This document shows, piece after piece, positions 19,205-32,439 of a stretch of DNA of 64,000 nt (positions within the stretch are counted from its first letter, which is position 1; each line of letters starts with the position of its first letter). The DNA comes from a virus. The notes beneath the pieces are model-generated. The model saw only the letters and a list, made by a program, of their open reading frames with translations, was not told the origin of the DNA and searched no databases. The position numbers were made by a program, and so were the translations under genes. The DNA lies in IMG/VR virus record IMGVR_UViG_3300025133_000036, positions 68,166-132,165 of that record; one strand, given 5' to 3'.

Positions 19205-19593
19205 TGAAAACACAATTACTATGCACTTTTTGCGTAAAACACGAATTTGACACAACTGTTGACCTAATATCTTTAGCTGCAAACGTTGTATTTAATAAAA
19301 TATATGCGTTTGAAAATCTAGACGATCCTCAGCAAATAATTTGTACTTATAATGTAGAAAAATTGGATGACTTTGTTCAAAACAATAAAACAATGGCGAT
19401 CCACCGGAAAAAAGAAACTAATACTTTATATACTATAAATGCTTTAAATGAAGCAATTCGTGAGAATAATGATGGAGTATTAGATAAGTCTTTTTCTTTA
19501 GACTGGTCAATGTATCAAAACAGTTTACTTCTTACGAACGATAAAGGTCTTAACGTTGTAAAAACAAAATTATATAAAATTGTAAACGTCTAG
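19204..19593 (+). CDS. hypothetical phage protein
   Basis: Coupled ORF; QLLCTF..HRKKETNTLYTINALN. Confidence 0.75.
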   Translation: MKTQLLCTFCVKHEFDTTVDLISLAANVVFNKIYAFENLDDPQQIICTYNVEKLDDFVQNNKTMAIHRKKETNTLYTINALNEAIRENNDGVLDKSFSLDWSMYQNSLLLTNDKGLNVVKTKLYKIVNV

Positions 19594-19601
19594 GACCTCC
19601 C

Positions 19602-19835
19602 ATGGAAATTTCAATCGAATATTGTATGCAATGAAATTACGAGCCACGAGCCTTCAGGTTGAGGGACGAACTTGGAATTAAATATCCGAATATTGATGAT
19701 TTTGATATGATACAATCAAAGGGCGGAGTATTCGAAATTAAACAAATAAACTCATCTAGCGATGAAATATTGCTATTTAGTAAAATTGCCACAGGAAGAT
19801 TTCCACATCAAGATGAAATAAAAATAAAGTTATAA
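19602..19835 (+). CDS. SelW/SelT/SelH (Rdx family) selenoprotein with in-frame TGA (Sec) at 19632-19634
   Basis: Reading through the TGA gives MEISIEYCMQ-U-NYEPRAFRLRDEL...GGVFEI...LLFSKIATGRFPHQDEIKIKL (77 aa), with CxxU, GxFEI and FSK..GRFP Rdx motifs; AGGA RBS; SECIS-like hairpin after the TGA. Confidence 0.88.
19651..19665 (+). promoter_or_regulatory. bacterial SECIS-like hairpin
   Basis: CCTTCA-GGT-TGAGGG stem-loop; the G-starting apical loop begins 22 nt after the TGA. Confidence 0.7.
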
Positions 19836-19902
19836 AAAACCTGCTTTTCGCCTTTTAATATTATATATATTTTATTACACTTACAAATGTAATAGTTTTT
19901 TG

Positions 19903-20330
19903 AAAATTTGAATTTTTTGGAAAGTACAGAGGAGTAATTAACTCTGTATGGGATTGGCCGAACAATGAGTGGATGAAGAAGCTCATAAGGCAATCTACCT
20001 TCAGATCTATAGTGGATCGGTATTCGGGCAAAATGCACAATATCTTACGACAGTATTGAGGGCTAATGTACTTCTAGAAAAACTTAAAGAACAGCGATTC
20101 TTTGACCTTGTTGTGGGTAAGGGTAATACCGAAATCCCACCAAGCTGGCTGAATAATCCAAACTTAGAGGGATAAGGCTCCTAACAGAGGTTGTGCTCGC
20201 TCAAATGTAAGGTAACACTTATGAGGAGAATCGACTTAACCGTCGGGGAAAGGGAACAAGGTAGAAAAATCTAAGCTAGAAGTTGTAGTGTAATCGCAAA
20301 TCCTACATCCTACCAAATAATTCAGATTTT
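19903..20330 (+). ncRNA. large (~430 nt) multi-helix structured non-coding RNA, family unassigned
   Basis: Closing helix 19903-19920/20313-20330 (17 of 18 pairs); nested long-range helices 20070-77/20276-83 and 20105-12/20255-62; several local hairpins; promoter-like motif upstream. Confidence 0.75.
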
Positions 20331-20395
20331 GACAATGTAACTGTATATATATTAATGTAAATAAACAATGACAAATAAAAATAGGAGTAAATGTT

Positions 20396-21151
20396 ATGGA
20401 TATTACCGCCATTAAGGCTCGCCTTAATCAACTTCAACAAGTTAATACAAGAACCTCTTCACTGTGGAAACCTTCACCAGGAAAATCTCAAGTGCGTATA
20501 GTACCTTATAAGCACAATCCGGATTCGCCATTTATTGAATTATATTTCCATTATGATATCGGTGAAAGATCATACTTGTCACCTGCATCATTTGGCCGTC
20601 CAGATCCAATTGAAGAATTTGCAGTTAAGTTGAAAACATCTGGAAATAAAGACGATTACAAATTAGGAAGAAAAATCGAGGCTAAAATGCGTACTTTCGC
20701 ACCTGTTATAGTCCGCGGTGAAGAATCCGAAGGTGTAAAGTTTTGGGGTTTTGGTAAAACAGTTTATCAAGAGCTTCTTTCTATCATTGCAGATCCAGAT
20801 TATGGTGATATTACTGATCCAGTAAGTGGTCGCGATATTGTAGTTGAGTTTAAAACTAAAGAAGAAACTGGTAAGTCATTTCCAATGACGGCTGTTCGTG
20901 CAAAACCAAATCAAACTCCGGTAACGGAAGATCCTGAGGTTATGAAGACAATCAAAGACACTCAAAAACAAATTACTGAGATTTACCAAGAGCAATCTTA
21001 TGATGATTTAAAAGAAGTCCTAAGTGGATTTCTAAATCAAGAATCAGAGCTCAGTGATAGTGACTTAAATACTGATGCAGTAAAGACTCCAGTTAAAGCT
21101 GGTAAAACTGAAGATGTATCGAGTGCTTTTGACGATCTATTCAACAACTAG
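20396..21151 (+). CDS. single-stranded DNA-binding protein (T4 gp32-like)
   Basis: WKPSPGKSQVRIVPY, VKFWGFGKTVY, DYGDITDPVSGRDIVV; acidic tail ending AFDDLFNN. Confidence 0.88.
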   Translation: MDITAIKARLNQLQQVNTRTSSLWKPSPGKSQVRIVPYKHNPDSPFIELYFHYDIGERSYLSPASFGRPDPIEEFAVKLKTSGNKDDYKLGRKIEAKMRTFAPVIVRGEESEGVKFWGFGKTVYQELLSIIADPDYGDITDPVSGRDIVVEFKTKEETGKSFPMTAVRAKPNQTPVTEDPEVMKTIKDTQKQITEIYQEQSYDDLKEVLSGFLNQESELSDSDLNTDAVKTPVKAGKTEDVSSAFDDLFNN

Positions 21152-32290: not shown

Positions 32291-32363
32291 GGGGCTGTAG
32301 CTCAGTTGGGAGAGCGCCGCACTTGCACTGCGGAGGTCGCAGGTTCGATCCCTGTCAGCTCCA
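32291..32363 (+). tRNA. tRNA-Ala(TGC)
   Basis: GGGGCTG/CAGCTCC acceptor with G3:U70, anticodon arm CCGCA-CTTGCAC-TGCGG, GGTTCGATCCC T-arm; no encoded CCA. Confidence 0.95.
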
Positions 32364-32368
32364 CAAAT

Positions 32369-32439
32369 GTAGAGGTGTCCGAATGGCTAGGTAACGGATT
32401 GCAACCCCGTGTATGTGAGTTCGAATCTCATCCTCTACT
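32369..32439 (+). tRNA. tRNA-Cys(GCA)
   Basis: GTAGAGG/CCTCTAC acceptor, U73 discriminator, anticodon loop TTGCAAC, GAGTTCGAATCTC T-arm. Confidence 0.88.

What the first reader, a model, noticed from the sequence alone, without database searches (positions are those of the whole stretch)
19903..20330. ~430-nt ornate non-coding RNA between the selenoprotein gene and ssb
Seen: the longest non-coding stretch in the window, richer in G+C than other spacers, closed by an 18-nt helix (AAAATTTGAATTTTTTGG / CCAAATAATTCAGATTTT). Nested long-range pairs: ACTTCTAG(20070)/CTAGAAGT(20276) and ACCTTGTT(20105)/AACAAGGT(20255). Local hairpins: TACAGAG/CTCTGTA, GATTG-GCC..ATGAG/CTCAT..GGC-AATC, GATCTA/TGGATC, CAATA/TATTG, AAAGAA/TTCTTT, GTGGG/CCCAC, CTCA..TAAG/CTTA..TGAG, CGAC/GTCG, TGTAG/CTACA. 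TATATATT promoter-like motifs lie just upstream (~19865) and just downstream (~20346), suggesting a stand-alone transcript. It lacks tmRNA ends and RNase P signature sequences. Inference: a large phage ncRNA in the style of GOLLD/ROOL, possibly a new class.
Basis: partly seen in the sequence, partly recalled or inferred. Interest (0 to 1): 0.8.

Follow-up and report, generated by a model that had tools for sequence, protein, structure and literature searches.

The report
Nested two-core manA-type phage RNA
The gene-free gap before this marine phage's single-strand-DNA-binding protein gene encodes a real, intricately folded RNA of about 430 bases that is an enlarged relative of the known "manA" phage RNA, with a second manA-like core built inside the first.

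Summary
Window 19903-20330 (+) is a conserved, non-coding, highly structured RNA. I collected about 97 homologous entries (68 distinct sequences) from uncultured viral contigs. On 32 representatives, a 97-pair structure is 93.5% paired (36-45% when partners are slid), and 76 pairs show changes on both sides.

It is not a wholly new class. Its only Rfam relative is manA (RF01745), always below threshold: 40.5 bits here, 34-54 bits in 11 of 11 homologs, cut-off 55.2. The layout is an outer manA-like fold whose long hairpin is replaced by helices P4-P6, a second manA-like core and a covarying pseudoknot. A canonical manA (phage P-SSM2) is a single 198-nt unit.

The RNA sits before gp32 in 88 of 97 entries. 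It has its own conserved TATATATA-type promoter-like motif, and 41 of 57 distinct downstream stretches carry a terminator-like hairpin. This window's copy lacks that hairpin and abuts the gp32 promoter-like motif.

Exact-match contigs occur in three ocean RNA libraries. Function is unknown. By analogy with a 2026 preprint on manA cages, a free-standing, possibly self-assembling RNA is my best guess.

This scan reached the same nested-double-manA reading earlier on other genomes. I found no paper describing this form.

The parts
19845..19869 (+). Promoter-like bipartite motif of the RNA: TTTTCGC, 10 nt, TATATATA
   Evidence: The same TTTTGRN-N10-TATATATA layout stands just upstream of ORF starts at 20327-20351, 26702 and 43676. 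A TATATAW motif lies 75-125 nt upstream of the GGGRUUG anchor in 53 of 65 distinct upstream stretches of homologs. Promoter function is inferred.
19872..19901 (+). Hairpin (ATTACA/TGTAAT core) followed by a U6 run, between the promoter-like motif and the RNA body
   Evidence: A hairpin with different stem sequences sits at this place in each of the 7 informative homologs of the 8 sequences folded (L004's segment started at an earlier TATATA and did not reach it) and in alignment A1. Role is inferred: a 5' stem-loop of the transcript, or a terminator for upstream read-through.
19903..19920 (+). P0, 5' strand of the outer closing helix
   Evidence: duplex -14.7 kcal/mol; 0 of 200 shuffles as good.
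19924..19949 (+). P1 hairpin of the outer core; its loop 19932-19941 holds the palindrome TAATTA
   Evidence: helix 1: 5 of 7 pairs change on both sides. Loop palindromes.
19950..19954 (+). GGGAU, 5' strand of the long-range helix PKa (equivalent of the manA 'pseudoknot' strand)
   Evidence: Pairs with 20307-20311 in 32 of 32 sequences, with one A-U to G-C exchange. A local alternative partner at 19992-19996 is also compatible.
19957..19991 (+). P2/P2a of the outer core (GCCGAACAA, stem-loop, UAAGGC)
   Evidence: helices 3 and 4. Aligned with high posterior probability to manA model positions 1-75.
19999..20061 (+). P3 multiloop of the outer core with hairpins P3a (GUGGUG-type loop), P3b and P3c (GACA loop)
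   Evidence: helices 5-8. Colinear with P3 of the canonical P-SSM2 manA.
20070..20077 (+). P4, 5' strand (long-range)
   Evidence: Pairs with 20276-20283. At least six different covarying versions. 23 of 23 group-A and 9 of 9 group-B sequences pair, the latter in a register shifted by two alignment columns.
20086..20103 (+). P5 hairpin (AAAGAA / TTCTTT)
   Evidence: Forms in 32 of 32 homologs with varied stems.
20106..20111 (+). P6, 5' strand; closes the inner core
   Evidence: Pairs with 20256-20261. helix 10: 5 of 6 pairs change on both sides, 98.4% paired.
20113..20252 (+). Inner manA-like core: P1' (20113-20140), P2'/P2a' (20148-20178), P3' multiloop with P3a', P3b', P3c' (20181-20252)
   Evidence: helices 11-19. 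This part plus the 3' end is what RF01745 aligns to (20112-20316, 40.5 bits).
20163..20168 (+). PKb, 5' strand: loop of P2a' forming a pseudoknot
   Evidence: Pairs with 20270-20275 in 32 of 32 sequences at all 6 pairs; 3 pairs change on both sides (helix 14).
20256..20261 (+). P6, 3' strand
   Evidence: helix 10.
20270..20275 (+). PKb, 3' strand
   Evidence: helix 14.
20276..20283 (+). P4, 3' strand
20285..20306 (+). P7 hairpin (equivalent of the last hairpin of manA)
   Evidence: helix 20: 100% paired, 3 of 4 pairs change on both sides. Aligned to manA model positions 165-182.
20307..20311 (+). PKa, 3' strand (AUCCU)
20313..20330 (+). P0, 3' strand; its last four T overlap the next promoter-like motif
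20327..20351 (+). Promoter-like motif of gp32 (TTTTGAC, 10 nt, TATATATA)
   Evidence: A TATATAW motif is present in 39 of 53 distinct RNA-to-gp32 spacers of homologs.
20396..21151 (+). gp32-like single-strand DNA-binding protein gene, the conserved downstream neighbour
   Evidence: Pfam PF08804, 50.1 bits. Downstream and co-oriented in 88 of 97 entries.

Best explanation
Window 19903-20330 (+) is a gene for a folded RNA of about 430 nt. It belongs to the wider manA family (Rfam RF01745) but has a nested two-core architecture.

The outer core has the manA parts in order: P1 hairpin, GGGAU strand, GAAYAA...UAAGG helix, three-hairpin multiloop, last hairpin, and AUCC strand. Where canonical manA has one long hairpin, this RNA has two long-range helices (P4, P6), a small hairpin (P5) and a second manA-like core. 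A pseudoknot ties that inner core back to the outer one: the P2a' loop pairs with 20270-20275.

The RNA is most likely transcribed from its own TATATATA-type promoter. It most likely works as a free-standing structural RNA during replication-stage infection, not as a switch for gp32. By analogy with canonical manA it may associate with copies of itself, for example through the palindromic loop of P1.

In this particular phage the family's terminator hairpin is missing, so transcription probably runs on into gene 32.

Shown here: conservation, the fold, the relation to manA, the gene neighbourhood, and presence in RNA libraries. Inferred: the promoter, the transcript ends, action in trans, and any self-assembly.
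For: Fold. On 32 representatives (under 93% identical; 46-88% identical to the window), 97 pairs in 20 helices are 93.5% paired against 36.1-44.7% for slid partners. 76 pairs have changes on both sides, and 0 of 500 shuffles reach the observed values. RNAalifold independently gave 65 pairs, 51 of them with compensatory changes.

Strand. Invariant G-U pairs occur on the + strand: 338-355 in 32 of 32 sequences and 79-93 in 31 of 32.

Not coding.

Relation to manA.
- RF01745 is the only Rfam family with a meaningful match: 40.5 bits, E 8.2e-9, and 34.3-54 bits in 11 of 11 homologs.
- The 5' part alone also draws only manA (9.7 bits, E 2.1), with P1, GGG and P2 confidently aligned.
- A model of the outer 5' core (R1) finds the inner P2' as best hit in the rest of the RNA: 12.3 bits, E 0.0043 in the window and 12.2 bits, E 0.0044 in L039.
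- R1 aligns end to end and colinearly with the canonical P-SSM2 manA: 6.9 bits, E 0.048 in a 241-nt search.
- The canonical P-SSM2 manA is one 198-nt unit, 33 nt after regA and 16 nt before purL, with no room for a second core.

Own gene.
- The promoter-like motif is conserved upstream.
- 41 of 57 distinct downstream stretches carry a covarying stem ending at a T-run, 73-148 nt after the RNA.
- A second promoter-like motif precedes gp32 in 39 of 53 spacers.
- The downstream gene is not always gp32: it is hsp20 in L112 and L217.
- Only 12 of 80 gp32 loci have the RNA.

Presence in RNA libraries. Contigs with no differences from the window come from three metatranscriptomic runs of three studies (20107-20355, 20053-20261, 20144-20396). 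Further contigs of relatives match the conserved core.

Self-association hint. 13 of 16 P1-loop types hold a Watson-Crick palindrome of 4-6 nt, against 6.5 expected; seven different palindromes occur across clades. Canonical manA RNAs form decamers and a 60-mer in vitro through kissing loops (preprint 10.64898/2026.07.01.735769, passages read).
Against: - All manA scores are below Rfam's cut-off.
- R1 gave no hit on the P-SSM2 locus in the unrestricted 67-kb search. The restricted-search E-values (0.004-0.05) come from a roughly calibrated model.
- The RNA is directly upstream of, and co-oriented with, gp32 in 88 of 97 entries. That is what a cis-acting leader would look like.
- This window's copy has no terminator and only 84 nt to the gp32 start. 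One RNA-library contig bridges 20144-20396.
- RNA-library contigs can derive from contaminating DNA, and they give no ends or strand.
- The loop palindromes are in A/U-rich loops where chance rates are 0.2-0.7 per loop type, and the loop types are not phylogenetically independent.
- No assembly, ligand or protein partner was tested. The cages in the preprint are in vitro only.
- The GGGAU strand has two possible partners, which could equally indicate a switch.
Confidence: 0.55

Rival explanations
1. Cis-acting leader of gene 32, and of hsp20 in some phages. The RNA is the 5' part of the gp32 mRNA. It tunes gp32 synthesis, either by binding a metabolite (a tandem riboswitch-like sensor, as first proposed for manA) or by binding gp32 itself, as in T4 autoregulation.
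For: - gp32 lies downstream and co-oriented in 88 of 97 entries.
- In this window no terminator separates them, and the RNA's closing helix overlaps the gp32 promoter-like motif.
- An RNA-library contig spans 20144-20396.
- manA was proposed as a cis-regulatory or riboswitch candidate upstream of nucleotide-synthesis, ibpA/hsp20 and photosynthesis genes (PMC2864571, passages).
- The GGGAU strand has two mutually exclusive partners.
- A 2023 survey reports 12 candidate structured RNAs directly upstream of GP32 genes and recalls T4 gp32 autoregulation through a leader pseudoknot (PMC10690425, passages).
Against: - In 41 of 57 distinct downstream stretches a stem plus T-run ends the RNA unit before gp32. 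A separate promoter-like motif follows in 39 of 53 spacers.
- Spacers to the gp32 start are 168-898 nt and sometimes hold another small ORF.
- No part of the conserved fold overlaps a ribosome-binding site or terminator in an either/or manner.
- 68 of 80 gp32 relatives do without the RNA.
Confidence: 0.25
2. A wholly new RNA class unrelated to manA. The sub-threshold manA match would reflect convergence or a shared small motif only.
For: - All manA scores lie under the 55.2-bit cut-off.
- The outer 5' core model does not find the P-SSM2 manA in an unrestricted search.
- The size is double that of manA, and the helices P0, P4, P5, P6 and PKb have no counterpart in the Rfam model.
Against: - 12 of 12 family members tested give full-length (model 1-192) manA alignments at E 8e-9 to 3.6e-5.
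- The shared elements are many and colinear: CUGAAUAA...UAAGG, a GUGGUG-type loop, a UAAC-type loop, the last hairpin with AAUCC, and the closing C-rich strand.
Confidence: 0.07
3. A DNA-level element (replication origin, packaging or recombination site) whose hairpins act in single-stranded DNA bound by the neighbouring SSB.
For: It sits at the head of the replication and recombination module (gp32, RecA/UvsX-like, 5'-3' exonuclease, DnaB-like helicase). The minus strand also folds well as a single sequence (z -3.3).
Against: - There are no iterons or other direct repeats beyond an 11-nt T-rich pair.
- Conserved G-U pairs exist on the + strand only; on the other strand they would be C-A mismatches.
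- A pseudoknot and nested long-range helices are maintained by compensatory changes.
- The region matches an RNA family and is present in RNA libraries.
Confidence: 0.03

Closest known systems
manA RNA motif (Rfam RF01745; Weinberg et al. 2010, PMC2864571). Canonical example examined here: Prochlorococcus phage P-SSM2, AY939844 142837-143034
   Same: The order and sequence signatures of the core elements match: P1 hairpin, G-rich strand, CUGAAUAA-stem-UAAGG, three-hairpin multiloop with a GUGGUG-type loop, last hairpin, and a C-rich strand pairing back to the G-rich strand. Both occur in marine phages and both have their own promoter. Both are linked with hsp20 or nucleotide/DNA-metabolism genes.
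   Different: - About 430 nt against about 190-200 nt.
- Scores of 34-54 bits, below the 55.2-bit cut-off.
- The long hairpin is replaced by P4, P5 and P6 plus a second manA-like core.
- Extra pseudoknot PKb and an extra A/U-rich closing helix P0.
- Sits before gp32 in a non-cyanophage-like marine phage clade; the closest cultured gp32 is 50.6% identical (Microcystis phage Mel-JY01).
- The promoter-like motif is TATATATA-type, not the TTGACA-N17-TATAAT seen in P-SSM2.
Self-assembling manA particles (preprint 'Structural assemblies for an RNA world', 10.64898/2026.07.01.735769; passages read)
   Same: Same family core. Conserved apical loops are available for loop-loop contacts. The intramolecular PKb, and a palindromic P1 loop, could play the part of the kissing loops that build manA pentamers.
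   Different: Nothing was tested for this RNA. The preprint passages I searched contain no mention of 'tandem' or 'fused', and the one 'duplicat' match concerns duplicate particles in image processing. The work is in vitro only. Its supplementary figures, which hold the helix numbering, were not available to me.
Large ornate bacterial and phage RNAs GOLLD, ROOL and OLE
   Same: Large size, many helices, phage association, unknown function, and a possible RNA-only quaternary structure. That these RNAs form assemblies is recalled, plus the mention of earlier long-RNA multimers in the preprint.
   Different: No sequence or structure match to any Rfam family other than manA at E<=10, which includes their models. 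This RNA is smaller (about 430 nt) and its fold is manA-derived.
T4 gene 32 mRNA leader pseudoknot, and the 12 candidate RNAs upstream of GP32 genes in PMC10690425
   Same: A position upstream of the SSB gene, and presence of a pseudoknot.
   Different: The T4 element is a small leader adjoining the ribosome-binding site and acts in cis through gp32 binding (as stated in PMC10690425). The paper's candidates lie within 25 bases of GP32. This RNA is 84 nt (here) to 168-898 nt (relatives) away and usually has its own terminator-like hairpin. Whether that paper's supplementary catalogue contains this family I could not see.

Membership tests
manA RNA (Rfam RF01745) | Score at or above the curated gathering score (55.2 bits) | tested here: not met
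   40.5 bits in the window. 34.3-54.0 bits in 11 of 11 homologs. No match over the cut-off in the phage's own 132-kb record.
manA RNA (Rfam RF01745) | Full-length, significant alignment to the model | tested here: met
   Model positions 1-192 aligned at E 8.2e-9 and E 5e-11 to 3.6e-5. The aligned stretch is the inner core plus the outer 3' end.
manA RNA (Rfam RF01745) | P1 hairpin, then a G-rich strand that pairs with a C-rich strand at the 3' end | tested here: met
   19924-19949, then GGGAU 19950-19954 pairing with 20307-20311 in 32 of 32 sequences. A local alternative partner exists.
manA RNA (Rfam RF01745) | CUGAAUAA, stem-loop, UAAGG helix (P2) | tested here: met
   Present twice, at 19957-19991 and 20148-20178. 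Both covary (helices 3, 4, 12, 13). R1 links the two at E 0.004.
manA RNA (Rfam RF01745) | Three-hairpin multiloop with a GUGGUG-type loop | tested here: met
   Present twice, at 19999-20061 and 20181-20252 (helices 5-8 and 15-19).
manA RNA (Rfam RF01745) | A single long hairpin between the multiloop and the last hairpin; overall length about 190 nt | tested here: not met
   Replaced by P4, P5 and P6 plus the inner core; total about 430 nt. That model region is the poorly matched part of the alignment. The canonical form was seen in P-SSM2.
manA RNA (Rfam RF01745) | Homo-oligomeric assembly (decamer or 60-mer) as in the 2026 preprint | not testable with these tools
   Only a hint: palindromic P1 loops in 13 of 16 loop types against 6.5 expected.
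GOLLD / ROOL / other large ornate RNAs in Rfam | Match to the family covariance model | tested here: not met
   No such family among the 6 matches at E<=10, and none at gathering score.
tmRNA / RNase P RNA / tRNA-like | Detection by ARAGORN or Rfam | tested here: not met
   0 genes. No Rfam match.
IMES-4 RNA motif (RF02037) | Significant match to the model | tested here: not met
   21.8 bits against a cut-off of 48, E 0.64, at 19871-19950. Not seen at E<=1 in 11 homolog loci.
Riboswitch / cis-regulatory leader | Conserved aptamer coupled to an expression platform (terminator or RBS sequestration) of the downstream gene | tested here: inconclusive
   Conserved position before gp32, but no fold element overlaps the RBS. 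Most relatives have a constitutive-looking stem plus T-run and a new promoter-like motif in between. No ligand was tested.

The most novel reading that the evidence does not exclude
The nested double-manA RNA is a hard-wired building block of an RNA-only particle that marine phages make in infected cells. The intramolecular pseudoknot between inner and outer cores would replace one of the intermolecular kissing contacts of canonical manA. The palindromic P1 loop would then join blocks into dimers or closed shells. Expressed with the replication genes (gp32, hsp20), the particle would give the in-vitro manA cages a natural, biologically used counterpart.
Probability: 0.2. Interest if true: 0.85.

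Novelty: new variant of a known kind. Interest (0 to 1): 0.5.

Why it matters
manA has been an orphan RNA since 2009-2010. A 2026 preprint reports that it builds RNA-only cages in vitro, but nobody knows what it does in a cell.

This family shows that evolution has enlarged the manA fold by nesting a second core inside the first. The family is widespread: about 68 distinct sequences in uncultured marine viral contigs. It keeps its length tightly (418-448 nt in 32 representatives) and is present in ocean RNA libraries.

That gives structural biologists a natural 'covalent dimer' for testing how manA contacts are used. It gives phage biologists a fixed genomic address, just before the SSB gene, where they can look for function. 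It also marks a gap in Rfam: every member scores below the manA cut-off, so automatic annotation misses them all.

Tried and rejected
Searches that led nowhere:
- DNA similarity against 50,697 phage records found nothing for the RNA. Only one distant match came up, for the recA region.
- The closest cultured relative by gp32 (Mel-JY01) has only a short gap before its gp32 and no Rfam match at E<=1.
- The Rdx protein found no relatives by the search for related loci.
- The IMES-4 resemblance was dropped.
- R1 found no further copies near the other 68 gp32 loci. The 5 weak hits (E 0.13-0.92) lie inside gp32 coding sequence.
- Ten gp32 loci with long gaps but no RNA gave no Rfam match at E<=0.01.
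- R1 against the P-SSM2 locus in the 67-kb search gave nothing at E<=10. Only the restricted search gave a marginal hit.

Methods that fell short:
- My first terminator detector was too strict (25 of 57). I replaced it with a duplex-energy test.
- My first 3'-anchor regex was too strict and was corrected.
- The pattern had one N too many by my mistake. It therefore caught only the subgroup with a 1-nt insertion, which still yielded 37 new homologs. The intended spacing was run.
- The genome-contig scan gave 56 hits, about the number expected by chance for 17 fixed bases. Only 1 was a true homolog.

Read laying:
- Bins 19500-19922 had no cover in the four RNA runs.
- Contig depths cannot rank the RNA against gp32.

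Not attempted:
- Supplementary files of PMC2864571, PMC10690425 and the 2026 preprint were closed. They may list the genes next to manA, the csRNA catalogue and the helix numbering.

The claim that the nested form is not in print rests on searches, and on passages of five papers. The library lacks most subscription journals.
Full report
SETTING. The window is the last 64 kb of a 132,165-bp uncultured virus record. Around the finding lie genes for a NUDIX hydrolase, a 129-aa protein of no family and an Rdx/SelW-like protein with an in-frame TGA (19602-19835). The 560-nt gap follows, and then come a gp32-like SSB (20396-21151), a RecA/UvsX-like recombinase, a 5'-3' exonuclease and a DnaB-like helicase. 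The closest cultured gp32 is that of Microcystis phage Mel-JY01 at 50.6% identity. DNA searches of phage records find nothing like the gap.

COLLECTING RELATIVES. Of the 80 best gp32 loci in IMG/VR (587 were confirmed), 12 hold a full-length or end-cut homolog of the whole 450-nt stretch (nhmmer). Three scans with short RNA motifs, independent of gp32, added more:
- 22 of 22 pattern hits were homologs.
- 37 of 71 new loci were homologs.
- 26 of 58 new loci were homologs.
Together this gives about 97 entries, with some contigs fetched twice. They collapse to 68 distinct sequences and 34 representatives under 93% identical. The 32 full-length representatives are 418-448 nt long over the stretch equivalent to window 19896-20336.

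COVARIATION.
- RNAalifold on 32 representatives predicts 65 pairs, 51 of them with compensatory changes.
- My curated structure has 97 pairs in 20 helices, including one pseudoknot. It is 93.5% paired against 36.1-44.7% when the 3' partners are slid by 1-3 columns.
- 76 pairs have changes on both sides, and 0 of 500 shuffles reach any of the five measures.
- Two helices, P4 and P1', look weaker in that count only because MAFFT put nine divergent sequences two columns out of register. In the shifted register they pair 9 of 9 at every position.
- P5 forms in 32 of 32 sequences.
- The A/U-rich closing helix P0 beats 95% of shuffles in 24 of 32.
- Invariant G-U pairs fix the + strand as the RNA strand.
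- No ORF is conserved. There is no tRNA or tmRNA and there are no iterons.

WHAT IS IT? At gathering thresholds Rfam finds only two tRNAs elsewhere in the window. With E-value reporting, the one meaningful match is manA (RF01745) at 20112-20316: 40.5 bits against a cut-off of 55.2, E 8.2e-9, over the full model length. All 11 homolog loci tested give the same sub-threshold match, at 34.3-54.0 bits.

The alignment covers an internal block plus the 3' end. It leaves the model's 5' G-rich 'pseudoknot' strand unmatched. That strand is found 160 nt further upstream (GGGAU, 19950-19954). There it follows a hairpin (P1) and precedes a second copy of the manA signature helix (GAAYAA, stem, UAAGG) and a second three-hairpin multiloop with a GUGGUG-type loop. 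So the RNA has two manA-like cores.
- The outer core supplies P1, the G strand, P2, P3, the last hairpin P7 and the C strand.
- The place of manA's long hairpin is taken by long-range helices P4 and P6, hairpin P5 and the inner core (P1', P2', P3').
- A six-pair pseudoknot (PKb) joins the inner P2a' loop to 20270-20275. It is paired in 32 of 32 sequences, with three covarying positions.

TESTS OF THE TWO-CORE READING.
- The 5' part alone draws manA as the only Rfam family at E<=10. The score is weak (9.7 bits, E 2.1), but P1, GGG and P2 are aligned confidently.
- A covariance model of the outer 5' core (R1) picks the inner P2' as its best hit in the rest of the RNA: E 0.0043 in the window and E 0.0044 in L039.
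- R1 aligns end to end, element by element, with the canonical manA of phage P-SSM2, at a marginal 6.9 bits and E 0.048 in a 241-nt search. It found nothing there in a 67-kb search.
R1's E-values are rough by the tool's own statement. I therefore call homology of the inner core with manA well supported, and that of the outer 5' core probable.

The canonical P-SSM2 manA scores 181.6 bits. It is one 198-nt unit wedged between regA and purL behind a TTGACA-N17-TATAAT promoter, so the double form is not simply an unannotated feature of all manA genes.

One ambiguity remains. GGGAU can pair with the distal AUCC strand (32 of 32 at all five pairs). It can also pair locally with 19992-19996 (23-32 of 32 per pair). 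The single covarying position fits both partners.

GENE OR LEADER? For a leader: gp32 lies downstream on the same strand in 88 of 97 entries. For a separate gene:
- A conserved TTTTGRN-N10-TATATATA motif precedes the RNA, with TATATAW in the expected range in 53 of 65 distinct upstream stretches. The same motif stands just before four other ORFs or units in the window.
- In 41 of 57 distinct downstream stretches, a stem with covarying arms ends at a T-run 73-148 nt after the RNA.
- A second TATATAW motif precedes gp32 in 39 of 53 distinct spacers, which are 168-898 nt long.
- In some contigs the next gene is hsp20, or an unknown gene followed by Mom-like and DNA polymerase III alpha genes.
- 68 of 80 gp32 relatives lack the RNA.

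This window's copy is the odd one. Its spacer to the gp32 start is only 84 nt and there is no stem plus T-run. The last four bases of P0 are the first four of the gp32 promoter-like motif. Here the RNA probably runs on into gene 32.

EXPRESSION. Six runs on record as RNA hold part of the stretch, and I laid four of them. Contigs identical to the window cover 20107-20355, 20053-20261, 20144-20396, 20396-20572 and 20379-20622. Those on the RNA come from three runs of three studies. Further contigs of relatives match the conserved core. These are assembled contigs. They show presence in RNA libraries, not ends, strand or level, and DNA carry-over cannot be excluded.

HOW MIGHT IT WORK? Function is unknown for the whole manA family. 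It was proposed as a riboswitch candidate in 2010 (PMC2864571). A July 2026 preprint reports that canonical manA RNAs form decamers, octamers and a 60-subunit cage in vitro through kissing loops. The passages I searched mention no tandem or fused form and no in-vivo work.

In the present family the P1 loop carries a Watson-Crick palindrome in 13 of 16 loop types, against 6.5 expected (P about 2e-4, not corrected for relatedness). Seven different palindromes occur in different clades.

My best reading, at moderate confidence, is a free-standing structural RNA that may self-associate. The cis-leader reading remains a serious rival.

EARLIER FINDINGS AND NOVELTY. I stated my reading before opening the scan's notes. 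Those notes show that follow-ups on other genomes reached the same 'nested or fused double manA' conclusion, so this is a repeat find within the scan. In the searchable literature I found no description of the double form. A 2023 catalogue of more than 10,000 viral candidate RNAs may contain it unnamed in supplements that I could not open.

Verdict: a real feature and a new variant of a known kind. The points specific to this window are the lost terminator and the fusion with the gp32 promoter-like motif.

Noticed in passing
window 19602-19835 (+): Small Rdx/SelW-like gene with an in-frame TGA at 19632-19634 in a CxxU-type motif. Pfam Rdx scores 62.5 bits when the TGA is read through. Rdx-like genes also sit just upstream of the RNA in the L015/L085/L097/L098 and L195/L211 entries. 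This is already the subject of another finding of this scan.
   Followed up: partly
window 3837, 19862, 20344, 26702, 43676 (+): All five TATATATA sites are intergenic and 15-50 nt before an ORF start or the RNA. Four are preceded by TTTTGAC/TTTTGAA/TTTTCGC exactly 10 nt upstream. The spacing does not fit sigma-70, so this may be a phage-specific promoter class.
   Followed up: partly
relatives, e.g. L106, L122, L126, L204: 20-90 nt after the RNA: The terminator-like hairpin after the RNA encloses a conserved sequence (TTTTAGTTTCCAC ... AAACTTAAAA) in 32 of 57 distinct downstream stretches. It may be a functional 3' extension of the RNA. It is absent from this window.
   Followed up: partly
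relatives L106, L125 (RNA leader) and many gp32 leaders: In relatives, both the RNA and gp32 start with the same layout: a TATATATT motif, then a hairpin of the type TGTATC...GATAC. This suggests a shared 5' stem-loop on transcripts from this promoter type.
   Followed up: no
L003-L081: The slot between the 129-aa gene and gp32 is hypervariable. In many loci it is about 100 nt. In others it is 250-2500 nt without the RNA and without any Rfam match. In 12 of 80 it holds the RNA.
   Followed up: partly
L251:2187-5200: The same module (129-aa gene, RNA, gp32, recA) lies on a 16-kb contig binned into a 'Candidatus Pelagibacter' MAG, at 32% G+C. This is either a hint at a SAR11 host or a mis-binned phage contig.
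   Followed up: partly
L112:2567-3040, L217:8376-8852: In two contigs the double-manA RNA precedes an hsp20 gene instead of gp32. This echoes the hsp20/ibpA link of canonical manA.
   Followed up: no
window 32291-32439 (+): Two adjacent tRNA genes, the only Rfam matches at gathering score in the window.
   Followed up: no
L035:1496-1567: In the L035 group a tRNA gene lies directly upstream of the RNA's promoter-like motif.
   Followed up: no
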